A stretch of DNA of 64,000 nucleotides from an uncultured bacterium (GTDB lineage Bacteria; Acidobacteriota; Thermoanaerobaculia; Multivoradales; JAHZIX01). Shown piece after piece: positions 9,667 through 28,155 of this stretch (the first letter of the stretch is position 1; every line of letters begins with the position of its first letter). The translations under genes were made by a program, and so were the position numbers. The notes beneath the pieces are model-generated. The model had not been told where the DNA came from. It saw nothing but the letters and a program-made list of their open reading frames with translations, and searched no databases. Location: NCBI GenBank assembly GCA_965368975.1, contig CBDUPA010000004.1:299051-363050 (forward strand), written 5' to 3'.

Positions 9667-9736
9667 GAAGGTCTCCACTGGCTTGCGCGGATGTAGGTTC
9701 TCGTCGTTATGAGTGATCTGGCTGCATACGCTTCCG

Positions 9737-10045: not shown

Positions 10046-10239
10046 TGGAATTCCTCAAAGCTGGATTAGGGACGTTGGGATCTTGCTTGCGAATCCGGCT
10101 GACGAACTTGCTTCTAGGTCCGTCCTGCCAGAGACGCATCGCTCTACGAAGACGCCAGCCAGAGTTCTGACCTTGCTGGCTGCTCAGGTCCATCTTAGAC
10201 CGCAGGGCTCCGTGCTGGGTGATGCGGTAGAGTTGAGGC

Positions 10240-15144: not shown

Positions 15145-15156
15145 GCCGGTCCCGCG

Positions 15157-15229
15157 AGGACACGAACCCAGGAACATGTTTGCGGGACGCGAACCCAGGA
15201 ACATGTTTGCGGGACGCGAACCCAGGAAC
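15157..15229. repeat. 27-bp tandem repeat, about 2.7 copies
   Basis: GGGACGCGAACCCAGGAACATGTTTGC units starting at 15157 (2 mismatches), 15184 and 15211 (partial). Confidence 0.9.
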
Positions 15230-15313
15230 TCAGGGGATTGTGTCGCGCTGAGTCGGCGCGTATCCTTCGGGATGACAGTACATGACTTCCGTGTCTCGCT
15301 CCTGGAGGAACCC

Positions 15314-17503
15314 ATGCTCAATCTCAGCCTTTCCCCAGCCCTCGGCTCGTCCGGGCTCGATAGCTCCGTCGACGGCGGACCCGTCATCGCCGTGCTGGTC
15401 ATGATCCTGGCGCTCGCCCTCGGTCTCGGCGCCGGTCGTGTCGCCAGTGCCAGCACTTCCGAGGTGTCGCCTTCGCCCGCCCACGTGGCCGATGCCGAGG
15501 TACAAGCCGCCATCGACGCGCTCGTTGAGCAGCACGGTGATGCCGAAGCCGAGCGCATCCGCCGCGGTGTCGCCCAGGTGCGCGATTTCTGGCGCCTGGG
15601 TGAGGATGGTGATGCCGATGCCTTCCGCGCCTTCGTCGAGGCCGAGTTCGTGCCCCAAGGCGAGCAGCTGGACGAGGTCTTCGAGCGCTTCGAGTTCGCC
15701 CTTGAACGGATCGACGGCTACTTCAACTCGATGGGCCGCGACCTCAGCCTGCAAGCCGATCTCGACCGCGGGCCTCTGCTGTCGCTCGACCATCGCCTGG
15801 CCGCCTACAACCCAGGTGCTCACGTGCTCGATGACATGTTCCAGAACCAGATGGCCTTCATCGCGCTGCTCAATTTCCCGCTCAGCAGCCTCGACCAGCG
15901 CCTCGAAGAGGGCATGGAGTGGTCGCGTCGCCAGTGGGCCGAGGCACGCCTGGCGCAGTACTTCTCGAGCCGCGTACCGGCGTCGGTGAGCCAGCGCATC
16001 AGCCAGACCATGTCGGACGCCGATTCCTACATCAACGCCTATAACATCTACATGCACAACCTGCTCACGGACGACGGCAGGCGTCCCTTTCCCGAAGGGC
16101 TGCGGTTGATCAGCCATTGGGGGCTGCGTGACGAGCTGAAGGCGCGCTACGCCGACCCGCAGGGTCTGGAGAAGCAGCGCCTCATCAAGACCGTCTTCGA
16201 CCGCATTGTGCGCCAGGAGATCCCCGCCGCCGTGGTCGACAATCCGAGTCTGGACTGGAATCCGGTGACCAACGACGTACGGGTTTCGGCGTTGCAGTCC
16301 GAGGATCGGCTAGATGCCAAGGTGTCTACGGCGCGCGAGCCGGACACGCGCTACCAGCACTGGCTGGGTATCTTCCAGGCCGTCCGCCTGGCTGATCCCT
16401 ACTACCCCGGTGACATGACCTTCATCGATCGTCGTTTCGAACGCGGTCGTGAGATCCCTGAGGCAGAGGTCCAGGAGCTGTTCGAGACGCTGCTGGCTGC
16501 GCCGGTGGGTAAGCAGGTTGCCGAGCTGGTCTCCCAGCGCCTCGGCCGACCGCTCGAACCCTTCGACATTTGGTACACCGGCTTCAAGCCCGGTGGTGGT
16601 TACCCTGAAGAGCAGCTCGACGAGGTCACGGAAGCGCGCTACCCGAGTGTCGACGCCTACGCCAAAGACATGCCGCGCCTGCTGCAGGATCTTGGTTTCA
16701 CCGAAGAGAAGGCTCAGTTCCTGGCCGAGAACATCGTCGTCCAGCGCTCGCGCGGTGCCGGGCACGCGCTCGGCGCGGCTCGCCGCGACGACAAGGCGTA
16801 CCTGCGCACCCGCGTTGCCGGTGAAGGCATGAACTACAAGGGCTTCAACATCGCGGTGCACGAGATGGGGCACACCGTCGAGCAAGTCTTCTCGATCACT
16901 ACGATCGACCACACCCTGCTCGAAGGCGTCCCCAACACCGCCTTCACCGAAGCGCTGGCCTTCGTCTTCCAGGATCGCGATCTCGAGCTGCTCGGCCTCA
17001 CCGAACCGGACGCCTCCGCTGAGCACTTTGCCGCGCTCGACAACTTCTGGAACAGCCGCGAGATCATGGGCGTCGCCCTGGTGGACATGGCCGCCTGGAA
17101 CTGGCTCTACGAGCACCCGGAAGCCACGGCCAGCGAGTTCCGCGACGCCGTCCTGACCATCGCGCGCGACATCTGGAACCGCTACTACGCGGACATCTTC
17201 GGCAGCCGCGACGAGACCCTGCTGGCGGTCTACTCGCACATGGTCGACGGCGCCATGTACACCCCCGACTACCCCCTCGGTCATGTCATCGCCTTCCAGA
17301 TCGAGAGCTACTTCCGCGGCTCTGACAAGCCGCTCGGCGTCGAGTACGAGCGCCTGTGCAAACTCGGTCAGATCACTCCGGATGCCTGGCTGCGCCAAGG
17401 GCTCGGCGCCCCGCTCTCCGTGCAGCCCCTGCTCGACGCCAGCGCCGAGGCGGTCGAGGCTCTGAGTGGTTCGGGTGAGGTGACCGCCGCGGCAGGAAAC
17501 TGA
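15314..17503 (+). CDS. Exported gluzincin-type (M3/M2-like) zinc metallopeptidase
   Basis: HEMGH followed by NTAFTEA third-ligand motif; N-terminal hydrophobic signal; ATG 15314 after GGAGGA. Confidence 0.65.
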   Translation: MLNLSLSPALGSSGLDSSVDGGPVIAVLVMILALALGLGAGRVASASTSEVSPSPAHVADAEVQAAIDALVEQHGDAEAERIRRGVAQVRDFWRLGEDGDADAFRAFVEAEFVPQGEQLDEVFERFEFALERIDGYFNSMGRDLSLQADLDRGPLLSLDHRLAAYNPGAHVLDDMFQNQMAFIALLNFPLSSLDQRLEEGMEWSRRQWAEARLAQYFSSRVPASVSQRISQTMSDADSYINAYNIYMHNLLTDDGRRPFPEGLRLISHWGLRDELKARYADPQGLEKQRLIKTVFDRIVRQEIPAAVVDNPSLDWNPVTNDVRVSALQSEDRLDAKVSTAREPDTRYQHWLGIFQAVRLADPYYPGDMTFIDRRFERGREIPEAEVQELFETLLAAPVGKQVAELVSQRLGRPLEPFDIWYTGFKPGGGYPEEQLDEVTEARYPSVDAYAKDMPRLLQDLGFTEEKAQFLAENIVVQRSRGAGHALGAARRDDKAYLRTRVAGEGMNYKGFNIAVHEMGHTVEQVFSITTIDHTLLEGVPNTAFTEALAFVFQDRDLELLGLTEPDASAEHFAALDNFWNSREIMGVALVDMAAWNWLYEHPEATASEFRDAVLTIARDIWNRYYADIFGSRDETLLAVYSHMVDGAMYTPDYPLGHVIAFQIESYFRGSDKPLGVEYERLCKLGQITPDAWLRQGLGAPLSVQPLLDASAEAVEALSGSGEVTAAAGN

Positions 17504-17504
17504 C

Positions 17505-18557
17505 GTGGTGTCCACGGGAACCGCCGGTGGCGTCTGGGTCGATCCAGACGCCCTGGCGGCTGTCATGCACCGTGCGCTCACCGCGCGCGACCTGAGCGAA
17601 GAGCATGCCGGCTTCGTCGTCGATGGTCTCGTCGAGGCGTCCAAGCGGGGTGTCGATACCCATGGCGTGCGTCTGTTCAGGACCTACCTCAACGAACTCG
17701 ACGGTGGCCGAGCCAAGGCCCATCCGCAGTTCCAGTGGCACGAAGCCGGCACCGCAGCCCGCGTCCTCGACGCCGGTGCCGCACTCGGCATGGTCGCCGG
17801 TCGCAGTGCCGCCGCCGAAGCCGTGAATCTGGCCAAGCAGCACGGTGTCGGCGTCGTCGTGGTGCGCAACTCCAACCACTTCGGTCCCGCCTCCTGCTAC
17901 ACCCTGGAGATGGCGCGCCACCGTGTCCTCGGCCTCGCCTGCACCAACAGTGATGCCCTCGTTGCGCCCTTCGGTGGATGCAGCCCTCTCGTCGGCACCA
18001 ATCCCATCAGCATGACGGTCGAAGCCGATGAAGACGACCTCTTCTGTGCCGACTTCGCCACCAGCCAGGTCTCCTACTCCAAGGTCAAGCACTATCGCGC
18101 CCACGGTCGAGACCTGGAAGCCGGTTGGGCCGTCAACGCCGAGGGTGTCGACGTGGCCAGGTCGGAGGATCGGGATGTGGCAGCGCTACAGCCCTTGGGT
18201 GGTTACAAGGGAGAGTGTCTCGGGCTGATGGTCGAGATCCTGTGCCCCCTGCTCGCCGGCGAACCCTACGACCACGAGCTGAGTCACCTTTACGGCGAAC
18301 CCTACGATGAACCACGCCGCGTCGCCCACTTCTTCCTCGGTCTGCACCTGCCGCTGTTTACGGATGAGCAGGTGTTCCGTGCTCGCCTGCGGCAAATGCT
18401 GCAACGCGTGCGCGCCGAGTCGGGGGAGCGGGGAGACGTGATGGTGCCGGGCGATCCGGAGACCCGCTACGCGGCACAGCGTCGAGAGAAGGGTATTCCC
18501 TTGACGGACGAAGAGGCGTCGTGGTTCCGGGGGCTGCCTGGAGGCGAGAGCCTGTAA
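17505..18557 (+). CDS. Ldh_2 family (AllD/ComC-like) oxidoreductase
   Basis: RGVDTHG, RNSNHFG, GTNPIS, DFATS, PLGGYKG, VPGDPE motifs. Confidence 0.9.
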   Translation: MVSTGTAGGVWVDPDALAAVMHRALTARDLSEEHAGFVVDGLVEASKRGVDTHGVRLFRTYLNELDGGRAKAHPQFQWHEAGTAARVLDAGAALGMVAGRSAAAEAVNLAKQHGVGVVVVRNSNHFGPASCYTLEMARHRVLGLACTNSDALVAPFGGCSPLVGTNPISMTVEADEDDLFCADFATSQVSYSKVKHYRAHGRDLEAGWAVNAEGVDVARSEDRDVAALQPLGGYKGECLGLMVEILCPLLAGEPYDHELSHLYGEPYDEPRRVAHFFLGLHLPLFTDEQVFRARLRQMLQRVRAESGERGDVMVPGDPETRYAAQRREKGIPLTDEEASWFRGLPGGESL

Positions 18558-18569
18558 GGTGGGCGCCGC

Positions 18570-21005
18570 TCAGGGTTGCCGCAGAGTCTGCGCTGGGTCA
18601 AGATCGACTGCGCCACGTGTCACTCGATAGATGGTGAGCAGCGCCAGTACGCCTAGCAAGAGGGGGACTGCAATGAGCTGCCAGCTCTTGAGATCGGGAG
18701 CCAGCGGGGTCGTCCCCTGCAGATAGGAGTCGAGCAGCAGCGCGAGGCCGACCCCGACCAGGAGCGCAGCGGCGATCCCGCGCCCGCTCTGCCAGAGTGC
18801 TTGCCGCAGCAAGTCTCCCGGCTGCGCACCCAAGGCCAAACGCACGGCATGATCAAAGTGGCGCCGCTGTGCCGCCGCGGCCGTGACCGTGACCACGCTG
18901 AACAGTGCCAGGCACAAGCCCACGGCGGCGAAGAGGGACGAGAGTCCTGCCAGCAGCCGCTGCCGCTGGAGGCCGGTGTCGAGATAGTGCTGCAGGGGCA
19001 CGGCGTCGGACAGCAGGAGGTAGGGATTGAGCGCGCGCACTCGCCGCCGCACCTCGTCAGCCAGGACGCTGGGCGGCACGCGGGTCCGGGCCACCAGGGT
19101 CATGCGTAGATGTGGTAGTGCCGAGAACGGCAGGTACGCTTCCGCGATCGCCGGTGCGGTGGGGCCTCCAGGGCGGGTATCGGCGACGATCCCGATGACA
19201 CGCTTCGGCGCTTTGTCGGCCCAGTTGAACTGGACCTGGCTGCCGACTAGCTGGCTGCCCGGTTTCAGGTCCAGGCCCAGCTGCCGTACCGCGGTTTCGT
19301 TGAGCAGGACGACCTCTGTGGCTGTCACGTGGCCATCGCTACCGGCGGGTGAGGTTCGCACTTCGAAGCCTCGACCTTGTAGTAGGTGGATCTCCAAGGT
19401 CGAGAGATACCCGGGACTGATGCCACGCAAGGCGATACGGTCGCTGGAGTGCTCGTCGGGCGCTTTTTCCCCGACCCTGGAGCCTTTCACTTGGAAGAGT
19501 GCGCCGGTCAAAGGGAGATGGCTGACCACTGCGGCGTGCAGGATGCGAGCATCTTGCTCGAGCTGAGCCGGCAGGGCGTCGAGAAACTGGAGGCGCTGAG
19601 CCTCCGTGAGCTGGCGTCTCGGTAGCTCCATCTGGAGCGTCAAGACCGCGTCGGGTTCGAAGCCGAGTGGCGTCGAGGCCAGTCTTGCGAAGTGGCTCAC
19701 AAGGAGGACGGCACCGAGGCAAAGCGCGGTTCCCAGGGCGACCTCGACGACCATGATGCCCGTATAGATCCCTCGCAGCGCGGGTGGCAAGCCGTCCCGT
19801 GCTCCGGGACGAAGGAGCGTGGTGCGACGCAGCGGAGACAGGCGGCCGTAGGGAAGCAGGTGGAGCAAGAAAGTCGCGAGCAGGGTCAGGCCCAAGACGA
19901 AGGCGAACGTCGCCCCCCGTGGTCGCAGTTGCACCAGCCAGGCCACCTGCGCCGGAAGAAAGCGGGGCAAGATGTCCAGCGCAAGGCTTGCCAGCCACCA
20001 GCCCAAGAGTGCACTCGCGAGGAGCCAGGGAAGGTTCTCGACCACCAGCTGCCGTAGCAGACGGCCACGTCCGGCACCGAAGGCCGCTCGTAGCGCCAAC
20101 TCCTGACGTCGCCGTTCCAGGTCCACCGTCAGCAAGCCTGCGACGTTGACACAGGCAAGCAGCAAGACCAGGGCGCTGGCAGCGAGCAACCACAGCAGCG
20201 CCGGTCGCACCGGCGCGACTGTCAAGTCATGCAAAGAGGCCGCGCGGCCCCGCCACGCTTCGTTGTCAGCCGGATGTTCCCGTGCCAGGGCCTCACTCAC
20301 TGCCGCCAGTTCCGCCATCGCTTGCTGCTCATTTACAGCTGGCCGTAGACGTCCCAGCACGCGTAGCATGCGATTGCCGCGCAGGAACCAGGGTAAGTTC
20401 AGCGGTAGGACGGCGATCACATCGACTCGCTGTTCGCTGACAGGGGTACCGAGGGAGAAGGAAGCGGGTAAGACCCCCACCACGGTGATCGCTTCCCCAT
20501 CCAGCGTCAAGCTCTTTCCGACCGCTTCCGGCTCCCCTCCCAGCTGTCGTTGCCAGAAGCTGTAGCTCACCACTGCAGCGGGTGGCGCACCGCTCTTGTG
20601 ATCGGGTGAGCCCAACAGTCGGCCCATTGAGGCTTTGATGTCGAGAACCTCGAAGAAGTCATCCGTCACCAGGAGTCCTGAAAGCTTCAGGGGTTCTCGG
20701 GTACTTTGCCAGGTAGGCTGCCACATGAAGGTAGCGGTTAGCTGCTCGAAGCTGCGCAGGCGTTGCTGCCAGTCCTGAAAGTTGGGCAGCGAGGCAACAC
20801 GTCCTTCGCCAGTCGCGGTAGGTTCTTGCTCCCACAACAGCATCAACAGGCCAGCGTTGGGATAGGGGAGAGATCCCTCGAGTGTCGACTGGACCAGGGT
20901 GCCGATGGTCGTCGCGAAGCCAAGTCCCAGCGCCAAGGAGAGCACCAAGCCTAGTGCAAGGAGAGGGCGCCGCAGCATGCGGTATAGGTCTTGATGCAGG
21001 GGCAA
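18570..21005 (-). CDS. ADOP/MacB-FtsX-like duplicated ABC permease, likely RiPP export
   Basis: SLPNFQDWQ, VVSYSFWQRQLGG, LVLLLACVNVAGLL, GFEPDAVLT, VRLALGA motifs; two periplasmic + TM halves. Confidence 0.85.
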   Translation of the reverse strand: MPLHQDLYRMLRRPLLALGLVLSLALGLGFATTIGTLVQSTLEGSLPYPNAGLLMLLWEQEPTATGEGRVASLPNFQDWQQRLRSFEQLTATFMWQPTWQSTREPLKLSGLLVTDDFFEVLDIKASMGRLLGSPDHKSGAPPAAVVSYSFWQRQLGGEPEAVGKSLTLDGEAITVVGVLPASFSLGTPVSEQRVDVIAVLPLNLPWFLRGNRMLRVLGRLRPAVNEQQAMAELAAVSEALAREHPADNEAWRGRAASLHDLTVAPVRPALLWLLAASALVLLLACVNVAGLLTVDLERRRQELALRAAFGAGRGRLLRQLVVENLPWLLASALLGWWLASLALDILPRFLPAQVAWLVQLRPRGATFAFVLGLTLLATFLLHLLPYGRLSPLRRTTLLRPGARDGLPPALRGIYTGIMVVEVALGTALCLGAVLLVSHFARLASTPLGFEPDAVLTLQMELPRRQLTEAQRLQFLDALPAQLEQDARILHAAVVSHLPLTGALFQVKGSRVGEKAPDEHSSDRIALRGISPGYLSTLEIHLLQGRGFEVRTSPAGSDGHVTATEVVLLNETAVRQLGLDLKPGSQLVGSQVQFNWADKAPKRVIGIVADTRPGGPTAPAIAEAYLPFSALPHLRMTLVARTRVPPSVLADEVRRRVRALNPYLLLSDAVPLQHYLDTGLQRQRLLAGLSSLFAAVGLCLALFSVVTVTAAAAQRRHFDHAVRLALGAQPGDLLRQALWQSGRGIAAALLVGVGLALLLDSYLQGTTPLAPDLKSWQLIAVPLLLGVLALLTIYRVTRGAVDLDPAQTLRQP

Positions 21006-21020
21006 GGGCTTGTTCCTGGG

Positions 21021-22292
21021 TCAGGTGGAGTGTGCCAAGGGAGTGAGTTGCGGGTCTTGGGTTCCATGTTGAGAGCGCCGTAACAGCGGTTTGCTCAGTT
21101 TCCAAGCCAGCGTTCCAACCATGAGTAGCATGACGAGCTGCGCTGATAGGTCGGCCAATGCTGAATACAGATGAGGGCTTCCTTGGGGATGGTGCAACAG
21201 TTGCAAGACCATGGCGCACGTCGAGGGGAACTGCGCGATCTGCCTGGCTACAGCGGGAATAGCATGGAATAGAAAGTAACCCCAGACCAGGATGGCGCCC
21301 AGCGAGTAAGCACTGAGCAGCAGGATAAGCCATGTAGGCCATGGCAGGGCACTCTCGGTCTTGCCGCGGAGTCGTTGTGCTAAGTGGCGCAGGATGGTTG
21401 CTGGTTGCCGGGACAGGTTCGTGACCCCCAGACTGTCTGCCAGCACCCAATAGCCATCGAATCGGAAGATCGGATTGAGAGAGAAAACAAGTACCGAGAA
21501 GACCAAGGTGGCAGCCATCCAAAATCCAGGCCAGCCGGTAGTCAGGTATCCAGTGAAGAAGATGCTTGCTGTGAGCATGTGGAGGTAGGGACCTCCAAGA
21601 TCGACGATCACGCGTTGCCAGCGGCGAAGTTGCCAGGCTGCTGTGACGTCGCTGTAGAGAACTGGATAGATCAGATACATTCCAAAGCCGATTTCACGCG
21701 GCTTGGCACCGAAATGAGCAGAAGCACTCGCATGTCCGAGCTCGTGCACCAGGAGAGAACCCAGAAAGAGCAAGAAGCCTGGCCAAGCCATCGTTCCAGA
21801 CAGGGTGGCTGGCGGACCCACTTGGAGAGCCCATGCGACCGTAGCGGTAAACCAGGTCAGCATGAATACGCAAGGCAGGGGGTAGAAGAACGGGCGTAGG
21901 AGGTTGGCCAGGCGGGTGACGATCTCAGCTGGAACCAGAGATGCTGTGAACCAAAAACCAGTGGGTAGAGCAGGTCTCTTGTCTGCTTGCTCCAACTGGG
22001 CCCTCAGGGACCGTTCGACCTTACCGTAGGCTTCGCGAACTTCCGTCTCAGAGACGTTCTTCGGCCCGCACGCGCTGAACTCCGAAGCGATCTCCTCAAA
22101 GGTGTGTCCCTCGTACACTCGCTGCACGAGATTATAGGCGCCTGAAGCGAGTTTCAGATGACTACCGTTCCGGGTCACCAGCAAAAAGTGTTGTCCATGG
22201 TCTCGCGAGTCGAGCGGAATCTCCCGATCCAGCCCTCGCAGGGCTGTCAGATCGAGGGAGCCTACCGGATCCTTGGCAATGGACATTGTCAT
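21021..22292 (-). CDS. M50 (site-2) family membrane metallopeptidase with N-terminal PqqD/RRE-like region
   Basis: HELGH, YSDVTAAW, LNPIFRFDGYW; soluble N-terminal region with beta-beta-beta-helix-like pattern. Confidence 0.8.
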   Translation of the reverse strand: MTMSIAKDPVGSLDLTALRGLDREIPLDSRDHGQHFLLVTRNGSHLKLASGAYNLVQRVYEGHTFEEIASEFSACGPKNVSETEVREAYGKVERSLRAQLEQADKRPALPTGFWFTASLVPAEIVTRLANLLRPFFYPLPCVFMLTWFTATVAWALQVGPPATLSGTMAWPGFLLFLGSLLVHELGHASASAHFGAKPREIGFGMYLIYPVLYSDVTAAWQLRRWQRVIVDLGGPYLHMLTASIFFTGYLTTGWPGFWMAATLVFSVLVFSLNPIFRFDGYWVLADSLGVTNLSRQPATILRHLAQRLRGKTESALPWPTWLILLLSAYSLGAILVWGYFLFHAIPAVARQIAQFPSTCAMVLQLLHHPQGSPHLYSALADLSAQLVMLLMVGTLAWKLSKPLLRRSQHGTQDPQLTPLAHST

Positions 22293-22307
22293 GAAGCGGG
22301 TCGACTC

Positions 22308-22508
22308 TCAGCCCACCTCGAAGGTCGTGCAGCCAAAATCAGCACAAGTCGCGAAGCTGCTGCAAGTGAACACTCCGCAGTCGAAGGAATCTTGGACCAT
22401 TACCATCTCAAGCCGCTGATCGAGTACTTCGACGGTCAGGTTCTCATCATCCAGGCTGAACAGGCTCTCGTTCAGACTGACCATTTCTGCAGGCTCTTTC
22501 TTCTTCAT
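22308..22508 (-). CDS. Radical SAM-modified RiPP precursor, 66 aa, 4x CxxF core
   Basis: MKKKEPAEMVSLNESLFSLDDENLTVEVLDQRLEM-VMVQDSFDCGVFTCSSFATCADFGCTTFEVG; GAGGAAG RBS; lies between maturase and peptidase. Confidence 0.88.
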   Translation of the reverse strand: MKKKEPAEMVSLNESLFSLDDENLTVEVLDQRLEMVMVQDSFDCGVFTCSSFATCADFGCTTFEVG

Positions 22509-22545
22509 CGCATCTTCCTCATTCAGAGTTGGTCCTTGGTTTGAC

Positions 22546-24048
22546 CTAGAGGCCACAAGCCGTAGCGGCTTCGGCAATCGATGGCTTTCCCGCGGAGAAG
22601 TCGAGAAAGGCTTCAGCGACAGCCTTGCGGAACCGGTTTGCGTAACCGTCGCAGTAGTTGCGATAGAAGTCGCCGTTGTTGTCCTGTGCCAGGACAGCAC
22701 AACCGCCGCCGCAGTGGAGGTTGTACCGGCACTTCATGCAGACGGAGTTTGTCGTCACCGTGCGGCCCCGCCAGTGGTCGTGCATTCGCGCGTTCAACTG
22801 CAGGTGATCGTGCGCATCAATGTGACCGATACGGATTCGCTGGTCACCGGTTCTCTCCCAGCAAGCATAGATATCTCCGAACGCGTCGAAGATGTACATG
22901 CCGAGGTGAGCTGAACAGAAGCTGGGTCTGAGGGCAGGCAAGCCGCGGCCGCTGAAAATTCGCAGCGCTTGTTGTCGGATTGGGTCGTCAACGGTCCCCA
23001 GGATCCTCAGTACCGGATGCTTTTCACGCAGTTCTGCCAGAGAACGGTCCAGTTCCCAGCTACCTAGTACGCTGGTGGTATCCGTGTGGTCGTTGGAGGC
23101 ACGGATGGCCGCGACCTGGGCTTTGAAGAGTGGTTGTTCATGCCACCCTAATAGCTCGAAGGTTTCTGCTAGCGCTACGAGGCTGGGCAGATTCGAACGG
23201 TCGACGTTGGTTCGAATCGTGATGGAGACACCTCGCTGGAAGCACAGTTCGATGTTGCGCTGGATTCGTTCCCAGGAGCCGCTGCCATCAGCATACTTTC
23301 TGCGGGCATCGTGCTCGTCCGGAGGTCCATCGAGTGTGATCTGAATACTGCTCAACCGCTCCGGGTGCAGCAGGTCGGCGTAGGCTTCGAGTTCGGTCCC
23401 GTTCGAGATGGCCCAGAAGTGAGCCTCTCCACGCTGCTCAGCTCTCTCGATGATGTACTGAACGATCTCGCGGTTGCTCGCCAGGAGAGGTTCTCCACCG
23501 AAGAAGCCAACATCGATCCTTCTTGGTTCGGTCTCTGGTATGCCATGGCGTTCTTCGATCTTGGGCATGACGGTGAAGATCCGATTCACCATGTCCTTGC
23601 TCATGCGCTTCAGGAGTCGACGAAAGCTGGGATCGGTCCGCATGTGATCCTGGAAGCAATACGGACACCGGAGGTTGCAATCATAGTTGGGCATGAAGAG
23701 GTACTTTGGCCAGGAGCGCGAGTAGGTGGCATGTAGCTTCTCGACGAAGCGACGCAAGAAGCCCTCTTCTTCTTCCTGCGTCAGGGTGGTCAAATAGCCG
23801 CGTTGCTTGAGGCGTCGAAGTGTCTCTTCCGATGGGACTTCGGTGGTTTTGGAAGCGAAGGCTGCCTCCTCGGCCCATTTCCCGTAGAGAGGCTTGGGGC
23901 GTGGTCCGACCTCCAGCGAGCGCAGGTACGAGGCCACTCGGCTCGATACCTTGTCGAAGGCACCGGTATACGTTTGCACCAGGAGGAGTTCGTCCTGCTG
24001 GTTGGGCAAGTCGACGTAGATTGTGTAGCTGCTGGTACGAAGACTCAT
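22546..24048 (-). CDS. Radical SAM/SPASM peptide maturase with N-terminal RRE-like region
   Basis: CNLRCPYC, FFGGEPLL, QITLDGP; SPASM Cys: CSAH..YACWE..CMKCRYNLHCGGGC..YC; alternative TTG start at 24057. Confidence 0.93.
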   Translation of the reverse strand: MSLRTSSYTIYVDLPNQQDELLLVQTYTGAFDKVSSRVASYLRSLEVGPRPKPLYGKWAEEAAFASKTTEVPSEETLRRLKQRGYLTTLTQEEEEGFLRRFVEKLHATYSRSWPKYLFMPNYDCNLRCPYCFQDHMRTDPSFRRLLKRMSKDMVNRIFTVMPKIEERHGIPETEPRRIDVGFFGGEPLLASNREIVQYIIERAEQRGEAHFWAISNGTELEAYADLLHPERLSSIQITLDGPPDEHDARRKYADGSGSWERIQRNIELCFQRGVSITIRTNVDRSNLPSLVALAETFELLGWHEQPLFKAQVAAIRASNDHTDTTSVLGSWELDRSLAELREKHPVLRILGTVDDPIRQQALRIFSGRGLPALRPSFCSAHLGMYIFDAFGDIYACWERTGDQRIRIGHIDAHDHLQLNARMHDHWRGRTVTTNSVCMKCRYNLHCGGGCAVLAQDNNGDFYRNYCDGYANRFRKAVAEAFLDFSAGKPSIAEAATACGL

Positions 24049-24136
24049 AGACTTCAAGTTGCCGGTTCTTCTTAACCAGTTTCGAGGCGGGACTGGCCGT
24101 TAGTCTGAAGACCGATAGCGGTCAGGGGATCTCCTG

Positions 24137-25036
24137 TCAAGATACCACGGAGCAAGTCCTGTCTCGTGCCTCGCTGGTGGCCGAGCGTCGCGCGCGAAAC
24201 AGCTGCACGAGCTGCTCCCGGCTGTCGCTGTAGTCCTGGAAGGAGCAGCTCTCCAGGAGTCGCTCGATCTCACCTTCGGCGAAGAAGTGCATTCCTTCGA
24301 GCGGGCGGCCGTTCCGGAGCGAGGTGAGGGGACGCCCGGGGCCTTGCGTGAAGTTCAGGCCGGAGAAGACGGAACCCGGTCGAAGGCAGCGGCTGATTTC
24401 AGAAACGCTCTGGCCGAGGTCAGTGAAGAGGTGCATCGCACCACAACAGTTGGCGCCATCGAAGGCTGCGGACACGAAGGGGAGGGCGAGCGCAGATGCT
24501 CGCAAGAAGGCGATATTGGTGATCCCCTGCGCCGTCGCGAGATGATGCGCTCTGGAGAGCATCGTCTGGGAGATGTCCACTCCGATCACCGTCGTCTCAG
24601 GATGGCGCTGGGCCAGGGCGCGAGTGAAGTTTCCCGTGCCACACCCGACATCGAGCAGGAAGCCTCCGGGCTCGGGCGAATGCCAGCTACTGAGGAGCTC
24701 CGCCTGTGCGGCAAAGCGTGACCGGGTCACGAGCCGGCATAGGGACGGTCGCCAGTAGTCTTCGTAGATGCGGACCAGCCCAGAGGTATGCAGGAAGCGA
24801 GCTGCAAGCGACAGCTGCGGAGGTTCGTTGAGAAGGTCGAGCACGCCGCTGCGGAGCGGCATGTTTCGCTCGCATTGCATGCAGACCGCCATGGCTACCT
24901 CGGCAGTCAGAGGTCCTGTGCACTGGTGGCAGGTGAGAATCTCGAGGTATCTGCTGAAGTCCATGCCGTTGTCCACTCGAGGCTCTGTGCGATTCGGGAA
25001 TTGACCAGAATCTACCATGGAGGAGATGCTGGTCAT
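24137..25036 (-). CDS. Class I SAM-dependent methyltransferase with N-terminal CxxC..CxxC zinc-ribbon-like module
   Basis: LLDVGCGTG, GVDIS, ALALPF...FD, RCLRPG; CHQC/CMQC; true start may be a downstream ATG. Confidence 0.85.
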   Translation of the reverse strand: MTSISSMVDSGQFPNRTEPRVDNGMDFSRYLEILTCHQCTGPLTAEVAMAVCMQCERNMPLRSGVLDLLNEPPQLSLAARFLHTSGLVRIYEDYWRPSLCRLVTRSRFAAQAELLSSWHSPEPGGFLLDVGCGTGNFTRALAQRHPETTVIGVDISQTMLSRAHHLATAQGITNIAFLRASALALPFVSAAFDGANCCGAMHLFTDLGQSVSEISRCLRPGSVFSGLNFTQGPGRPLTSLRNGRPLEGMHFFAEGEIERLLESCSFQDYSDSREQLVQLFRARRSATSEARDRTCSVVS

Positions 25037-25063
25037 CGCCTCAGTGAGTCGGAGTCGAGAGAC

Positions 25064-25091
25064 GTGGCAGGTCCACCGTTGAACCTGCCAC
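25064..25091. terminator. 9-bp hairpin between arsI-like gene and methyltransferase
   Basis: GTGGCAGGT-10 nt-ACCTGCCAC; no U-tract on the minus strand. Confidence 0.35.
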
Positions 25092-25099
25092 TCCAGGAC

Positions 25100-25564
25100 T
25101 CAGGCGCAGCAAGCGGCGCCGTCACCGCAGGTCGCACTCTGAGTCTGCAGCTCTGGTGCGGTGTCGCCGACCTTGACCACGAAGACCTCCCAGCCGTTGC
25201 CGTCCGGATCCCGTACCCACACTTTGTCCTGCAGGGCATAGCAGCAGTCGGTGTCGGATTCTTCGAAGGTCGCCATGCCGGCATCTTTCAGCCGCTGTGC
25301 CGCCTCGCGCACGATCTCGGTACTGTCGACCTGGATGCCCAGGTGGTTGAGGGCACCGACACGGGCGCCGTGTTCGCCGGCTTCGGGGATGGCGGTGGGT
25401 TCGGTGGAGGTGTTCTCGTTGAGCGTCAGGTTGAGACCGGGGTCTTCGATGTCGAATTTGGCGTAGCCCGGCTTCAGCTTGACGGGATCCTGACCGAAGA
25501 AGGCGCGGTAGAAATCGACCGAGGTCTGGAAGTGGGCGGTGTTGAGGGCGAGATGGGTCTTCAT
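25100..25564 (-). CDS. ArsI/CadI family VOC metalloenzyme (C-As lyase-like)
   Basis: HLALN, KPGYAKF, LNHLGIQV, TDCCYALQDKVWVRDPDGNGWEVF. Confidence 0.9.
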   Translation of the reverse strand: MKTHLALNTAHFQTSVDFYRAFFGQDPVKLKPGYAKFDIEDPGLNLTLNENTSTEPTAIPEAGEHGARVGALNHLGIQVDSTEIVREAAQRLKDAGMATFEESDTDCCYALQDKVWVRDPDGNGWEVFVVKVGDTAPELQTQSATCGDGAACCA

Positions 25565-25653
25565 GGTGAGTCTCCTTGTGTTTGTGTTTCTAGCAGGGTC
25601 GAATTATGAATTCGCAACTGTTGGATGGATCGAGTCCGGAGTGCGTCACGAAC

Positions 25654-26043
25654 TCAGCCGCAGCCCGGTCCGCACGTTCCCTCATCGACCCCGATCGGCA
25701 GACCGGGGGACGTGACACTTTGAGGGGCAAGAACGGTTTGGCGGGTGCAGCATTCGGCGTAGAGGAAGCCGAGCAGCCGGCGCAGGGCGTCGGTGCCGGC
25801 GCGGTAGCGCAGGAAGCGGCCTTCACGCTCTTGGGTGATCAGACCTTCCTGGCGCAGAGCGTCGAGATGGTGCGAGAGCGTCGAGGGCGGGATCTGGACT
25901 TCCGACTTGATCTCGCCGACCACTAGCCCCACCGGATGCGCCGCCAGCAGCGCGCGCAGGATCTCGACGCGGGCCTCGTGGCCCAGAGCGGCGAACATGC
26001 TGGCGAACTGTTTGGCGTCTTCTTCGTGGTGCTTCCTGCTCAT
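25654..26043 (-). CDS. arsR: ArsR/SmtB family repressor with C-terminal vicinal Cys
   Basis: FAALGHEARVEI, STLSHHLDALRQEGLI, LYAECC; adjacent arsI-like gene. Confidence 0.85.
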   Translation of the reverse strand: MSRKHHEEDAKQFASMFAALGHEARVEILRALLAAHPVGLVVGEIKSEVQIPPSTLSHHLDALRQEGLITQEREGRFLRYRAGTDALRRLLGFLYAECCTRQTVLAPQSVTSPGLPIGVDEGTCGPGCG

Positions 26044-26048
26044 GACTA

Positions 26049-26081
26049 GATGATTCTAGAATCATCGAATCAATGTGTCAA
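26049..26081 (-). promoter_or_regulatory. arsR promoter with overlapping palindromic operator
   Basis: TTGACA (26081-26076)-17 nt-TAGAAT (26058-26053); perfect 18-bp palindrome GATGATTCTAGAATCATC at 26049-26066. Confidence 0.8.
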
Positions 26082-26120
26082 GCCTCTCGCGACTTCGACA
26101 GCGAGGACAGAACCATGCGG

Positions 26121-26960
26121 TCATCCTAGGAGACAGCGGAACCCGACCCACTCTCCTGCCTGACGCTCTTGCTCGACCCGGAATCCGACGTCTTCCAGGC
26201 GATCGCTGATCTCAGCACCACGCGTGGCCAGGATGCCGGAGAACACCGCTTCCCCTCCTCGGCGCAATCTCGACGGTAGCAACGGCAGGTGGGGTAGGAA
26301 GTTCTCGGGCAGGATGTTGATCAGCGCGACGTCGAAGCCGGCTCCGGGGGCGATGACGGCGAGATCTCCGGCGAACAACGTTGGTTCGGGGCCCGGATTC
26401 AAGGCCCGGAATTGACCGGCGTGCAGGATGGCGACGGGGTCGACGTCGAAGCCGACGGCGGTTCGGGCGCCCAGGCGCAGGGCGGCGAAGGCGAGGATGC
26501 CGCTGCCGGTGCCGACGTCCAGGAAGCGCCGGCCATCGAAGGCCAGGCCTTCCATCAACTCCAGCGCCAGGCGCGTGCTCTCGTGACTGCCGGTGCCAAA
26601 GGCTTCGCGAGCCGGGAGGCGGAGCAGGATTCGACCGTCGGAAGGTTCTTGCGTCGCGCTCTCGTCGGGCTCGCGCGGATCGATGCGGAAGCGCTCACCA
26701 ATCTCGAGCGGCTGGACGTGACGCCGGTAGGCGGCCATCCAATCGTCGGCCGGCAGTTCTTCGCTGCCGAGAAACTCTGCGCCTGCTGGTGCTTGTGGAG
26801 GCGAAGTTTCCAGGTCGACGAAGGCGTCGACTTCGAGCTGACCGCCCGGGCGCTCACGCTGTTCCAGACCGAGAATGCCGTCGGCCCACAGCTGGGCGGT
26901 GACGGCTTCCTCCAACGCTGCCGGCAGGAGATACCGGCAGCGCCGGTAGGAGGTGGCCAT
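26121..26960 (-). CDS. prmA: Ribosomal protein L11 methyltransferase
   Basis: DW...Y, AFGTGSHESTRL, LDVGTGSGIL, FSGIL motifs. Confidence 0.9.
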   Translation of the reverse strand: MATSYRRCRYLLPAALEEAVTAQLWADGILGLEQRERPGGQLEVDAFVDLETSPPQAPAGAEFLGSEELPADDWMAAYRRHVQPLEIGERFRIDPREPDESATQEPSDGRILLRLPAREAFGTGSHESTRLALELMEGLAFDGRRFLDVGTGSGILAFAALRLGARTAVGFDVDPVAILHAGQFRALNPGPEPTLFAGDLAVIAPGAGFDVALINILPENFLPHLPLLPSRLRRGGEAVFSGILATRGAEISDRLEDVGFRVEQERQAGEWVGFRCLLG

Positions 26961-26964
26961 GGGA

Positions 26965-28155
26965 TCAGCCGATCTTCAGCTCCAGCGGTTGATCGCTGCC
27001 GAGGAGGTCGCCACCGTCGAGCAAGTCGTCGCCAGAGCCGGCTTCCAGGTTCGAGTCCATTTCTTCGCGTGCAATGTCGGCGGTGAACTGGACGCCCTCG
27101 ATCTTGAGCTTGAATTCGTCCGGGTTGGTGGCGCGGCGTAGGGCTTCTTCGAGCGTGATCAGGCCCTGCTTGTAGAGCACGTACAGGGCTTGGTCGAACG
27201 TCTGCATACCGTACTGGCTGGTACCGAGCGCGATCTGCTCGCGGATGTACTTGGTCTTTTCTTTCTGCTCGATGCACTCGCGGATGTAGGGCGTCGTGAT
27301 CATGATCTCGGCCGCGGGTACACGGCCGATGCCATCGGAGCGAGGTACCAGGCGCATCGAGATGACGGATTTGAGAACCTGCCCGAGCTGAATACGCACC
27401 TGCTTCTGGTGGTGCGGTGGGAAGACGGAGATGATGCGGTTGATGGTCTCGGCAGCATCCATGGTGTGCAGGGTAGAGAACACCAAGTGGCCGGTCTCGG
27501 CCGCGTGCAGCGCCGTCTCGATGGTCTCGAAGTCGCGCATTTCACCGACCAGCACGACATCCGGATCCTGGCGCATGGCGGCGCGCAGGGCGGAGGGGAA
27601 GGTACGGGTGTCGACATCGATCTCGCGCTGATTGACCAGTGACTTCTTGTCACGATGCAGGAACTCGATCGGATCTTCGATGGTGATGATGTGCTCGGCG
27701 CGGCGCGTGTTGATGTGGTCGACCATGGCGGCCAGAGTGGTCGACTTACCGGAACCGGTGGTGCCGGTCACCAGTACCAGGCCACGACGTTCCTCGCAGA
27801 TCTTCTCGACCACCGCCGGCATCATCAGTTCGCGGATGGTCTTGATCTTGGACGGAATGACACGCATGACGAGGCCCACGGCACCTCGCTGCTGGAAGGC
27901 GTTGACGCGGAAGCGACCGAGCCCCGGCACGGAGTAGCTGAGGTCGAGTTCGAGCTCTTCTTTGAAGCGCTGCTTCTGACGGCCGTTCATCATCGAGAAC
28001 GCCATCTGGATGGTGTCCTCTTGCATCAAGCGCTTGATGTCACGGGTCTCTTGCAACTCGCCGTCGATACGGCACATCGGATGGCAACCCACCTTGAGAT
28101 GGATATCGGAAGCCTTCCGCTCGACGGCTATGTTGAGCAGCTCATTGATGTTCAT
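26965..28155 (-). CDS. pilT: Type IV pilus retraction ATPase PilT/PilU family
   Basis: ASDIHL, RFRVNAF, GTTGSGKSTT, TIEDPIE, MRQDPDVVLVGEMRD, GMQTFDQ. Confidence 0.9.
   Translation of the reverse strand: MNINELLNIAVERKASDIHLKVGCHPMCRIDGELQETRDIKRLMQEDTIQMAFSMMNGRQKQRFKEELELDLSYSVPGLGRFRVNAFQQRGAVGLVMRVIPSKIKTIRELMMPAVVEKICEERRGLVLVTGTTGSGKSTTLAAMVDHINTRRAEHIITIEDPIEFLHRDKKSLVNQREIDVDTRTFPSALRAAMRQDPDVVLVGEMRDFETIETALHAAETGHLVFSTLHTMDAAETINRIISVFPPHHQKQVRIQLGQVLKSVISMRLVPRSDGIGRVPAAEIMITTPYIRECIEQKEKTKYIREQIALGTSQYGMQTFDQALYVLYKQGLITLEEALRRATNPDEFKLKIEGVQFTADIAREEMDSNLEAGSGDDLLDGGDLLGSDQPLELKIG

What the first reader, a model, noticed from the sequence alone, without database searches (positions are those of the whole stretch)
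18570..25036. Complete radical SAM RiPP gene cluster with an unusual enzyme set
Seen: five co-oriented, tightly spaced genes: methyltransferase, rSAM/SPASM maturase, 66-aa precursor, M50 peptidase and ADOP permease. Established: RRE-containing SPASM enzymes next to Cys-rich peptides install thioether cross-links (sacti- and ranthipeptides such as AlbA, PapB and CteB products). Inference: the cluster encodes modification, tailoring, leader removal and export of a polycyclic, possibly methylated peptide. From memory, the maturase and acidic E.L..RLE leader resemble the bioinformatically defined Cys-every-fifth (CefA/CefB) family, for which I know no characterised product; this resemblance needs checking.
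Basis: partly seen in the sequence, partly recalled or inferred. Interest (0 to 1): 0.9.

Follow-up and report, generated by a model that had tools for sequence, protein, structure and literature searches.

The report
Uncharacterised radical-SAM cysteine-repeat peptide cluster
This is a real gene cluster for a ribosomal peptide that a radical-SAM enzyme probably cross-links at four Cys-x-x-Phe repeats; it belongs to a large, widespread enzyme family that nobody appears to have named or studied, and it is not the "Cys-every-fifth" family.

Summary
All five co-oriented genes are at the stated coordinates. The rSAM/SPASM enzyme, precursor, M50-type protease and ADOP permease form a comparatively supported RiPP unit.

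- **Maturase family.** It has 120 or more close homologue clusters, all generically named. It falls below every NCBIfam equivalog cutoff: PapB 117.7/340, CefB 112.4/600.
- **Precursors.** 45 precursors in 25 of 44 sources share an L-[ED]-x-R-[LMIV]-E-[LM] leader. In their cores the residue three after Cys is F/Y/W/N/D in 104 of 156 cases, against 20% in shuffles. The window peptide has four C-x-x-F units. No NCBIfam precursor model matches.
- **Fold.** The maturase model matches CteB over its full length, RRE included (Z 23.1).
- **Protease.** It keeps HExxH and NPxxxxDG and has an RRE-like N-terminal domain.
- **Permease.** It groups with RiPP-linked ADOPs from other organisms, not with 33 paralogues in its own genome.
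- **Methyltransferase.** Comparison does not support it: 0 of 50 related loci carry a homologue, and it lies just downstream of arsR-arsI.

Best reading: i-to-i+3 thioether rings, leader removal by the M50 protease, export or immunity by ADOP. The chemistry is inferred.

The parts
22546..24057 (-). Radical SAM/SPASM peptide maturase, 503 aa (probable ATG start at 24048, giving 500 aa). It has an N-terminal RRE-like domain, an rSAM core with C127/C131/C134, and a seven-Cys SPASM domain.
   Evidence: PF04055 56.6 bits and TIGR04085 48.1 bits against a cutoff of 27. The Cys residues are invariant in 16 homologues. AlphaFold model pLDDT is 80.2, with a three-strand, three-helix N-terminal domain. 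The best structural match is CteB 5why/5wgg, Z 23.1/22.8 over model residues 9-485. The profile search of the PDB gives CteB at E 2.9e-19.
22308..22508 (-). 66-aa precursor peptide MKKKEPAEMVSLNESLFSLDDENLTVEVLDQRLEMVMVQDSFDCGVFTCSSFATCADFGCTTFEVG
   Evidence: ATG start with GAGGAAG five bases upstream. Homologous peptides of 42-50% identity lie directly after the rSAM gene in L088, L089, L090, L093, L097, L113 and L117. It is the only strong match in the genome to the precursor HMM, E 6.5e-22.
22404..22424 (-). Conserved leader motif, residues 29-35, of the type L-[ED]-x-R-[LMIV]-E-[LM]
   Evidence: R32 and E34 are invariant in 24 aligned precursors. The motif occurs in 45 peptides from 25 of 44 sources.
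22320..22385 (-). Core repeat region, residues 42-63. It has four C-x-x-F units (Cys44/Phe47, Cys49/Phe52, Cys55/Phe58, Cys60/Phe63) plus Phe42.
   Evidence: Read from the sequence. Across the family, position +3 after Cys is F 52, N 28, D 15, L 14 and Y 8 of 156. F/Y/W/N/D account for 104 of 156, against a shuffle mean of 20%; 0 of 2000 shuffles reach the observed value.
21021..22292 (-). M50 (site-2-protease-like) intramembrane metalloprotease, 423 aa, with an N-terminal RRE-like winged-helix domain. It is the presumed leader peptidase.
   Evidence: PF02163 29.2 bits against 27.2. Daptide HExxH model NF041824 scores 101.2 bits against 300. H183, E184, H187, N273, P274, D279 and G280 are invariant or nearly so in 10 homologues. 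Residues 114-344 match S2P 3b4r at Z 9.3, and residues 12-100 match the lasso RRE TbiB1 5v1u at Z 7.0, rmsd 2.8, 78 of 84 residues. Homologues lie in 13 of 44 sources.
18570..21005 (-). ADOP-type duplicated FtsX/MacB-like permease, 811 aa. It is the presumed exporter or immunity component, and no ATPase gene lies in the cluster.
   Evidence: TIGR03434 540.4 bits against 622.3, aligned over residues 9-810; MacB_PCD and FtsX each give two stretches. It forms a clade with the ADOPs that follow the precursors in L088, L089 and L097, apart from 33 paralogues in its own genome: SH-like support 99 in FastTree and SH-aLRT 100 in IQ-TREE.
24137..25036 (-). Class I SAM-dependent methyltransferase with an N-terminal Cys4 zinc-ribbon-like segment. 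It is a neighbour whose membership in the pathway is doubtful.
   Evidence: Methyltransf_25 83 bits; no NCBIfam equivalog is reached, the best being UbiE at 62.8 bits against 216. A homologue is found in 0 of 50 related loci and in 0 of 20 relatives. Only one homologue above 50% identity exists in the protein collection. GC3 is 0.747.

Best explanation
The locus encodes a ribosomally made, post-translationally cross-linked peptide of an uncharacterised radical-SAM family.

1. The maturase has the three-part build of the thioether-forming enzyme CteB: an N-terminal leader-recognition (RRE) domain, a radical SAM core, and a SPASM domain with two auxiliary Fe-S clusters.
2. It binds the conserved acidic, helical leader (SLN...L.VE.L[DE]xRLE[LM]) of the 66-aa precursor encoded directly downstream (inferred).
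3. It uses 5'-deoxyadenosyl radicals to join each of the four core cysteines (Cys44, 49, 55, 60) to the residue three positions on (Phe47, 52, 58, 63). This would give four small i-to-i+3 rings and a mass change of about -8 Da (inferred).
4. The bond is most likely a thioether to a side-chain carbon, that is, ranthipeptide-like at the beta-carbon. The reason is that the +3 position across the family is filled by Phe, Tyr, Asn or Asp, which all carry a beta-CH2 next to an sp2 centre (inferred).
5. The membrane M50 metalloprotease has its own RRE-like N-terminal domain. It then recognises the same leader and cuts it off at the membrane (inferred).
6. The co-inherited ADOP (duplicated MacB/FtsX-type) permease exports the product or protects the producer, using an ATPase encoded elsewhere (inferred).
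7. The neighbouring methyltransferase is probably not a conserved part of the pathway.

Shown here: the gene content, the conserved synteny, the leader and core motifs, the folds and the catalytic motifs. Inferred: every chemical step.

The confidence of 0.6 is for the pathway as a whole, meaning an rSAM-cross-linked Cys-repeat RiPP with M50 and ADOP as functional partners. For the specific i-to-i+3 beta-thioether pairing I would give about 0.4-0.45.
For: **Architecture.** The maturase has CxxxCxxC and seven SPASM cysteines, invariant in 16 homologues, and SPASM model TIGR04085 scores above its cutoff. The full-length structural match to CteB gives Z 23.1, rmsd 4.0 and 384 residues aligned over model residues 9-485, which includes the RRE. 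CteB is also the best hit by sequence profile, E 2.9e-19.

**Substrate link.** Peptides with the leader motif lie directly after the rSAM gene in 25 of 44 sources, 45 peptides in all. tblastn finds homologues of the window precursor at 42-50% identity in the closest loci. The window peptide is the only strong hit to the precursor HMM in the whole genome.

**Core motif.** Position +3 after Cys is F/Y/W/N/D in 104 of 156 cases, against 20% in shuffles, and 0 of 2000 shuffles reach that value. Positions +1 and +2 favour G and T. The window core has four C-x-x-F units.

**Protease.**
- HExxH and NPxxxxDG are conserved.
- The core has the S2P fold, Z 9.3, and the N-terminal residues 12-100 match the RRE TbiB1, Z 7.0.
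- Homologues lie in 13 of 44 sources.
- M50 proteases are known leader or scaffold peptidases in epipeptides and pearlins (PMC10885120, passages read).
- The complex prediction of the M50 N-terminal domain with the precursor gave weak support: score 0.33, best of 3 controls 0.02. The mark was reached by 58 of 80 solved complexes and 2 of 110 mismatched pairs, but a score of 0.60 or under was seen in only 7 of those 80 solved complexes and in both mismatches. The runs agree in at least 50% of contacts, and partner pLDDT is 45-47.

**Permease.** It forms a four-member clade with the RiPP-linked ADOPs of L088, L089 and L097, with support 99 and 100, away from 33 paralogues in its own genome.

**Acquired island.**
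- GC3 is 0.63-0.69 for the M50, precursor and rSAM genes, against 0.74-0.84 for the flanking genes.
- The rSAM is found in 3 of 401 genomes of the phylum.
Against: - No chemistry was or could be tested. Thioether formation, the i-to-i+3 pairing and the beta-carbon site are all inferences from motif statistics and from analogy to PapB, NxxcB and QhpD, which I recall and did not fetch.
- The sequences in the motif count are related, so the shuffle test overstates independence.
- In the window's own clade Phe also sits two residues before each Cys (FYW at -2 in 34 of 169 cases; 0 of 2000 shuffles reach this). An F-x-C pairing or a different ring pattern therefore fits equally well.
- Leu fills 14 of the 156 +3 positions, which does not fit the 'beta-CH2 next to sp2' rationale.
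- The closest loci (L088, L089, L093) have no M50 gene within 6 kb, so the protease is not obligatory.
- The RRE match of the M50 N-terminus has a middling Z, and other winged-helix domains score 5.7-6.8. The profile comparison of the M50 and rSAM families was not significant, E 0.5.
- The ADOP permease has no ATPase partner in the cluster, and G000 holds 35 ADOP copies.
Confidence: 0.6

Rival explanations
1. Sactipeptide-type product. The maturase links the Cys sulfur to alpha-carbons, possibly with a nested hairpin topology as in subtilosin or thuricin, rather than making local i-to-i+3 side-chain thioethers.
For: The closest solved structure is CteB, deposited under a sactipeptide title. 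Phe alpha-carbons are acceptors in subtilosin A (recalled). The architecture is the same as that of AlbA-type enzymes.
Against: The core is a tandem repeat of short C-x-x-[F/N/D] units, with donor and acceptor interleaved, rather than a Cys-rich half facing an acceptor half. Asn and Asp acceptors at a fixed short spacing resemble the beta-thioether systems (PapB, NxxcB; recalled). Sequence alone cannot tell an alpha-carbon from a beta-carbon link.
Confidence: 0.15
2. The maturase performs different radical chemistry, such as a C-C cyclophane, an ether, epimerisation or another change at the aromatic, Asn or Asp residues. In that case the cysteines form disulfides, bind metal or stay free.
For: rSAM/SPASM enzymes of similar build make C-C, C-O and C-S links. 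NCBIfam hits of similar strength include DynA (83.8 bits), YhhB and FxsB cyclophane formers (57.8, 49.9) and the QhpD-type maturase (75.6). No named family is reached, so the chemistry cannot be transferred by homology.
Against: Cys is the one invariant core residue in the alignment (C49), and it is the anchor of the repeat. The top three NCBIfam matches and the best structure match are maturases of Cys-rich peptides; PapB, QhpD and CteB form thioethers.
Confidence: 0.15
3. The methyltransferase is a tailoring enzyme of this particular cluster, so the product is methylated (+14 Da).
For: It is co-oriented and lies 79 bp upstream of the rSAM gene. No terminator-like site was found between them. 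It is absent from 20 relatives, like the rSAM. Related clusters carry other tailoring genes in variable positions, for example a GT1 glycosyltransferase in 10 loci.
Against: A homologue is found in 0 of 50 related loci, 20 of which have an rSAM of at least 47% identity and at least 1 kb upstream. It has a single homologue above 50% identity. Its GC3 of 0.747 is closer to the host range than that of the rSAM or M50 genes. It directly follows arsR-arsI, which has a strong sigma-70-like site (11 of 12 matches) upstream at 26081-26053. It may therefore simply be the last gene of, or an insertion next to, that unit.
Confidence: 0.3
4. The cluster is a member of the Cys-every-fifth (CefA/CefB) family.
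For: The Cys spacing in the window core is 5, 6, 5. CefB is the second-best NCBIfam match.
Against: CefB scores 112.4 bits against a cutoff of 600, in two stretches, no better than PapB or the geopeptide maturase. No NCBIfam model matches the precursor or 24 relatives. Ten sampled family representatives of 30-47% identity also reach no named equivalog. No G000 protein reaches E 1e-60 to NF038107.
Confidence: 0.03

Closest known systems
CteB (SCIFF/thermocellin maturase, PDB 5WGG/5WHY)
   Same: It has the same three-domain build: RRE, rSAM core and SPASM with two auxiliary clusters. It is the best structural match (Z 23.1 over residues 9-485) and the best sequence-profile match (E 2.9e-19). Its substrate is also Cys-rich.
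   Different: Identity is only 19-20%. The SCIFF model TIGR03974 scores 70.2 bits against 425. The leader and the core repeat are different.
PapB / freyrasin-type ranthipeptides
   Same: PapB is the best NCBIfam match, at 117.7 bits. Its substrate has tandem short repeats with a Cys donor and an acceptor at a fixed short distance, and it forms a side-chain thioether (the PapB chemistry is recalled).
   Different: The score is far below the cutoff of 340. The window motif is C-x-x-F (i to i+3, aromatic acceptor), not C-x3-D. PapB is not known to me to come with an M50 protease or an ADOP permease.
CefA/CefB 'Cys-every-fifth' family (NCBIfam NF038107)
   Same: It pairs an rSAM/SPASM maturase with a precursor holding regularly spaced cysteines. 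The window spacing is 5, 6, 5.
   Different: The score is 112.4 bits against a cutoff of 600. No NCBIfam model matches the precursor. Membership is rejected.
Daptide, epipeptide and pearlin M50 proteases (MpaP-type NF041824; EpeP/YydH; TglG)
   Same: They are membrane HExxH proteases encoded in RiPP clusters that release the product. NF041824 aligns to residues 44-366 at 101.2 bits, and YydH/LiaK model NF058609 scores 43.9 bits. Their roles are reviewed in PMC10885120 (passages read).
   Different: The window protease is below both cutoffs (300 and 225). It is paired here with an rSAM thioether-type maturase. Its N-terminal domain is best matched by a lasso-peptide RRE.
ADOP (TIGR03434) / MacB-FtsX permeases
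   Same: The full-length match scores 540.4 bits, and the protein has duplicated MacB_PCD and FtsX domains.
   Different: The score is just under the subfamily cutoff of 622.3. The permease belongs to a distinct clade that travels with this RiPP cluster, whereas ADOPs are described as orphans (recalled).

Membership tests
Radical SAM / SPASM superfamily | CxxxCxxC cluster motif plus a SPASM seven-Cys domain | tested here: met
   C127/C131/C134 and C381, C399, C440, C443, C449, C453 and C469 are invariant in 16 sequences. PF04055 scores 56.6 bits against 29.5. TIGR04085 scores 48.1 bits against 27.
RRE-dependent RiPP maturases (CteB-like) | N-terminal PqqD-like RRE domain fused to the rSAM core | tested here: met
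   The model shows strands 12-16, 23-28 and 34-38 followed by helices 39-47, 77-86 and 94-113. The CteB alignment starts at model residue 9 and chain residue 1. Binding of the leader was not tested.
CefB (NF038107) Cys-every-fifth maturase | Score at or above the curated cutoff of 600 bits | tested here: not met
   The score is 112.4 bits in two stretches. No G000 protein reaches E 1e-60 to the model.
CefA precursor | Match to an NCBIfam precursor model; Cys at every fifth residue | tested here: not met
   The window peptide matches 0 families at E up to 0.01. None of 24 family precursors matches a RiPP precursor model at a meaningful E; the best is 0.16-0.21 to unrelated models. The Cys spacing of 5, 6, 5 is only approximately every fifth residue. 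I did not identify the CefA model accession; the whole library was scanned.
PapB family ranthipeptide maturase (NF047865) | Score at or above 340 bits; C-x3-D/E substrate motif | tested here: not met
   The score is 117.7 bits. The core motif is C-x-x-F.
Ranthipeptide or sactipeptide (as a product class) | Cys-S to carbon thioether (non-alpha or alpha carbon) installed by the rSAM enzyme | not testable with these tools
   This needs MS and NMR of the modified peptide.
Peptidase M50 (site-2 protease) | HExxH and a downstream NPxxxxDG zinc-ligand motif in a polytopic membrane core | tested here: met
   PF02163 scores 29.2 bits against 27.2. H183, E184, H187, P274, D279 and G280 are invariant and N273 is at 90% or more. 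The match to S2P 3b4r gives Z 9.3, rmsd 3.6 and 153 residues aligned.
Daptide HExxH protease (NF041824) | Score at or above 300 bits | tested here: not met
   The score is 101.2 bits.
ADOP duplicated permease (TIGR03434) | Full-length match at or above 622.3 bits; two MacB_PCD plus FtsX modules | tested here: inconclusive
   The score is 540.4 bits, aligned over residues 9-810 to profile positions 10-802 of 803, which is below the cutoff. The domain pair is present twice.
Class I SAM methyltransferase | Rossmann-type SAM-binding domain | tested here: met
   Methyltransf_25 scores 83 bits against 27. No NCBIfam equivalog is reached; UbiE scores 62.8 against 216 and ArsM-type NF008823 scores 41.1 against 263.

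The most novel reading that the evidence does not exclude
This enzyme family installs a cross-link type not yet described: a Cys sulfur joined to the beta (benzylic) carbon of Phe or Tyr three residues downstream. The same position accepts Asn or Asp in sister clades. That would make it a general 'C-x-x-Z' stapling enzyme producing strings of four-residue thioether rings. It would define a new, widespread RiPP class found in Acidobacteriota, Chloroflexota, Cyanobacteria and Myxococcota, with an RRE-guided intramembrane leader peptidase and a dedicated ADOP permease. The latter would give a first functional context for an 'orphan' ADOP clade.
Probability: 0.35. Interest if true: 0.75.

Novelty: new variant of a known kind. 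Interest (0 to 1): 0.55.

Why it matters
Radical-SAM/SPASM maturases that act on Cys-rich peptides are a known kind, but this clade has no name and no characterised member.

- **Size and spread.** The clade has 120 or more 90%-identity clusters above 50% identity. At 50% clustering, 599 clusters have E up to 1e-30. None of 10 sampled representatives reaches a named family.
- **No match in print.** Seven full-text searches found no paper on it.
- **A testable hypothesis.** The leader and the C-x-x-[F/Y/N/D] repeat give a specific prediction of i-to-i+3 rings. This would be a compact enzymatic peptide-stapling motif that tolerates chemically different acceptors.
- **First functional contexts.** The accessory genes suggest a role for an ADOP permease clade and point to an M50 protease with a leader-recognition domain.

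Acidobacteriota are abundant soil bacteria whose natural products are little studied.

Tried and rejected
- **CefA/CefB and PapB membership.** Tested with NCBIfam and rejected.
- **Synteny with relatives.** I tried to set the island borders this way. Only the Ldh_2-family dehydrogenase gene (window 17505-18557) was found in four relatives' regions, and none of the other 11 window proteins searched, so no borders could be drawn.
- **M50 against rSAM families.** The profile-profile comparison was not significant (probability 0.11, E 0.5), although it paired the two N-terminal domains.
- **M50 model by Foldseek alone.** It gave no match at E up to 0.001 (best S2P 7.5e-3, TbiB1 0.18). The VIA second look gave the Z values quoted.
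- **Promoter and terminator scan.** It found no terminator-like site on the minus strand between the methyltransferase and the ADOP gene other than one inside the ADOP gene. Overall site counts were not above shuffles, so operon structure is not settled.
- **Rfam.** No family reached its gathering score in 17500-27000.
- **ESM Atlas with the precursor.** All hits were at 0.83, which makes them leads only.
- **Sequencing runs.** None was listed for 18400-26200 and no RNA holder was listed.
- **Third rSAM match in G000.** The match at C13 has 25% identity and was not pursued.
- **Bacillus and Paenibacillus loci (L014, L015, L018).** These have 26-30% identity. L014 and L015 hold two rSAM genes, an M50 gene and a different Cys-rich peptide. 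They are distant relatives, not members.
- **Literature.**
  - Seven searches returned no paper on this family. The library covers open-access papers and bioRxiv only, so subscription papers could have been missed.
  - Of the papers listed I read passages of PMC10885120 and of PMC8692599 (not relevant). The others I saw only as search listings. I asked for no supplements.

Full report
**Observation.**
- Methyltransferase, 24137-25036.
- rSAM/SPASM enzyme, 22546-24057. The database gene call of 500 aa implies the ATG at 24048 as the start.
- Precursor of 66 aa, 22308-22508, with GAGGAAG five bases before its ATG.
- M50-type protease, 21021-22292.
- ADOP permease, 18570-21005.

The gaps between genes are 79, 37, 15 and 15 bp. 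Pfam and NCBIfam confirm the domain calls. The co-oriented run continues upstream through an ArsI/CadI-family gene (25100-25564; NF041414 156.7 bits against a cutoff of 116) and an ArsR-family regulator (25654-26043). A strong sigma-70-like site (11 of 12 matches) lies at 26081-26053. Orientation alone therefore does not delimit the cluster.

**The maturase is not a named family.** Every NCBIfam equivalog is missed by a wide margin: PapB 117.7/340, CefB 112.4/600, geopeptide maturase 109.4/400, TIGR04463 98/525, SCIFF 70.2/425. Yet the protein has many close relatives.
- The 120 best clusters in the 5.8-billion-protein collection are all 51-63% identical over nearly the whole length. Their sources name them only 'radical SAM protein', 'SPASM domain-containing protein' or 'uncharacterized protein'.
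- Source labels include Acidobacteria, Thermoanaerobaculia, Dehalococcoidia, Roseiflexaceae, a cyanobacterium and Microcystis.
- Genome records add a Polyangium MAG (48%) and Ktedonosporobacter rubrisoli (36%).
- In the library clustered at 50% identity, 599 clusters have E up to 1e-30, and the 150 best score 207-497 bits.
- Ten representatives sampled at 30-47% identity reach no named equivalog either.
- Within the window's own phylum the enzyme is rare: 3 of 401 genomes at E up to 1e-60, counting G000.
- The rSAM, precursor and M50 genes have GC3 of 0.63-0.69, against 0.74-0.84 in flanking genes. This fits horizontal acquisition.

**Fold of the maturase.** With a 16-sequence alignment the AlphaFold model has pLDDT 80.2 and pTM 0.81. 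Its N-terminal domain has three strands followed by three helices. The best structural matches were:
- CteB, Z 23.1/22.8, rmsd 4.0, 384-405 residues aligned, model residues 9-485/487 against chain residues 1-448/450.
- anSME, Z 22.3, starting at model residue 115.
- ChlB, Z 21.0.
- TigE, Z 20.0, model residues 2-488.

CteB is also the best hit by sequence profile, E 2.9e-19. The three rSAM cysteines and seven SPASM cysteines are invariant. The enzyme therefore has the build of an RRE-dependent maturase with two auxiliary clusters. That is what it works like. It does not fix the chemistry.

**The precursor family.** I scanned the window and 43 related loci. Peptides ending within 8-60 residues after an L-[ED]-x-R-[LMIV]-E-[LM]-type motif, with at least two core cysteines, were found in 25 of the 44 sources. 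There were 45 peptides in all, up to 10 copies in one locus (L108) and 6 in Ktedonosporobacter (L012).
- In an alignment of 24 of them, R32, E34 and one core Cys are invariant. The consensus leader reads SLN..DL.VEELE.RLELA.
- No NCBIfam or Pfam model matches the window peptide or any of the 24.
- Other family loci (L004, L006, L009, L011, L100, L101) carry peptides with different leaders but similar C-x-x-F-T-C-type cores.

**The core motif.** In 44 unique cores, the residue three positions after each Cys is F 52, N 28, D 15, L 14 and Y 8 of 156.
- F/Y/W/N/D together make 104 of 156 (67%), against 20% in residue shuffles of the same cores, and 0 of 2000 shuffles reach the observed value.
- Positions +1 and +2 favour Gly and Thr, so the commonest unit is C-G-T-F.
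- The window core has four such units: Cys44/Phe47, Cys49/Phe52, Cys55/Phe58 and Cys60/Phe63.
- Different clades use different acceptors at the same spacing: C-W-x-N and C-G-x-N in L092, L094 and L103; C-G-T-N in L107; C-x-x-D in L012.
- Two caveats apply. The peptides are related, so the shuffle test overstates independence. In the window's clade an aromatic residue also sits two before each Cys (34 of 169; 0 of 2000 shuffles), which allows another pairing.

**Mechanism proposed (inferred).** By analogy with local thioether-forming systems (PapB C-x3-D, NxxcB N-x-x-C, QhpD; all recalled, not fetched), I propose that each Cys sulfur is joined to the residue at +3. The most likely site is its beta-carbon, because Phe, Tyr, Asn and Asp share a beta-CH2 next to an sp2 centre. 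This would give four four-residue rings and about -8 Da. An alpha-carbon (sactionine) link or non-thioether chemistry cannot be excluded from sequence.

**The protease.**
- The 423-aa protein keeps HExxH (H183, E184, H187) and NPxxxxDG (N273, P274, D279, G280) in 10 homologues.
- Its core matches the M. jannaschii site-2 protease (Z 9.3, rmsd 3.6, 153 aligned), RseP (8.7) and SpoIVFB (8.4).
- Its N-terminal residues 12-100 match the lasso-peptide RRE TbiB1 solved with its leader (Z 7.0, rmsd 2.8, 78 of 84 residues). Generic winged-helix domains score 5.7-6.8, so this Z is middling and the assignment is moderate.
- A complex prediction of that domain with the precursor gave weak support. The score was 0.33 and the best of 3 controls 0.02. 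The mark was reached by 58 of 80 solved complexes and 2 of 110 mismatches, but a score of 0.60 or under was seen in only 7 of those 80 and in both mismatches. The runs agree in at least 50% of contacts, and partner pLDDT is 45-47.
- M50 homologues occur in 13 of 44 sources, with further tblastn hits in L011 (weak), L110 (partial) and in distant loci (L014, L015, L018).
- The three closest full loci (L088, L089, L093) lack one within 6 kb.
- M50 proteases are documented in epipeptide and pearlin maturation (PMC10885120, passages read).

**The permease.** G000 has 35 ADOP matches, so adjacency alone would mean little. However, the window's copy is closer to the ADOPs that directly follow the precursors in L088, L089, L093, L113 and L097 (32-39% identity) than to any paralogue in its own genome (33% or less).
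- In trees of 39 sequences it forms a four-member clade with L088, L089a and L097, with SH-like support 99 (FastTree) and SH-aLRT 100 (IQ-TREE).
- The permease is therefore a co-inherited part of this clade's cluster.
- Its role as exporter or immunity protein, with an ATPase encoded elsewhere, is inferred.

**The methyltransferase.**
- A homologue is found in 0 of 50 related loci by tblastn. Twenty of these loci have an rSAM of at least 47% identity and at least 1 kb upstream.
- It is found in 0 of 20 relatives.
- It has one homologue at 54% identity and four at 34-37% in the large collection.
- It reaches no equivalog: UbiE 62.8/216 and ArsM-type 41.1/263.
- It may be a locus-specific tailoring enzyme. 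Related clusters do carry variable tailoring genes, notably a GT1 glycosyltransferase in 10 loci and a 743-aa protein with a weak squalene-hopene-cyclase-C match in 8. Nothing here links it to the peptide beyond position.

**Verdict.**
- The RiPP interpretation is supported for four genes.
- The CefA/CefB lead is rejected.
- The methylation idea is unsupported.
- The cluster is a member of a large, unnamed rSAM RiPP family with its own leader and a C-x-x-[F/Y/N/D] repeat.
- I rate it a new variant of a known kind, with interest 0.55.
- No paper on this family turned up in seven full-text searches of the open-access library. Subscription literature was not searchable.

Noticed in passing
L004 (G000 contig C18:26000-44000): rSAM 8866-10401 (+), peptide about 10510-10702 (+), ADOP 10815-13436 (-), peptide at 13706 (+), M50 13948-15396 (+): The same genome holds a second, paralogous cluster. 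Its rSAM is 52% identical and is followed by a peptide with a different leader and a single C-x-x-F-T-C unit. Two ABC-2 permease genes lie upstream and a convergent ADOP gene of a different clade lies downstream. A second short peptide with the canonical LEDRLEL motif sits just before an M50 gene.
   Followed up: partly
window 25100-26081 (-): An arsR-family regulator (25654-26043) and an ArsI/CadI-family metalloenzyme gene (25100-25564; 156.7 bits against a cutoff of 116) lie directly upstream of the methyltransferase. A strong sigma-70-like site (11 of 12 matches) is at 26081-26053.
   Followed up: partly
L097:7809-9080, L114:1366-2718 and 8 further loci (L099, L100, L102, L107, L109, L110, L116, L117): A GT1-type glycosyltransferase (EryCIII-like_C, UDPGT, Glyco_transf_28) lies within related clusters in 10 loci, which suggests glycosylated members of the family. 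The window has none.
   Followed up: partly
L098:2216-4447 and L012, L019, L086, L092, L094, L095, L103: A conserved protein of about 743 aa follows the precursors in 8 related loci. Its only Pfam match is a weak one to the squalene-hopene cyclase C-terminal domain (27.4 bits against 26.1). Its function is unknown.
   Followed up: no
L108:1263-3720; L012:8511-10069: Some family loci encode many precursor copies with hypervariable cores behind a near-identical leader: 10 in L108 and 6 in Ktedonosporobacter rubrisoli (L012).
   Followed up: no
G000, whole genome: The genome holds 35 ADOP-type permease matches at E up to 1e-10, one of them with an internal TAG.
   Followed up: partly
L014 and L015 (Bacillus bruguierae, B. 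paranthracis), about 5130-9370: These are distantly related clusters (26-30% identity) with two tandem rSAM/SPASM genes, an M50 protease and a 54-aa peptide ending in a dense C-F-N-C / C-C repeat.
   Followed up: no
L088:5427-5705, L089:5571-5894, L090:261-674, L093:5562-5894: A short conserved ORF of about 100-137 aa with no Pfam match lies just upstream of the rSAM gene in the four closest loci. It takes the place of the window's methyltransferase. An equally conserved ORF on the opposite strand makes the coding strand uncertain.
   Followed up: no
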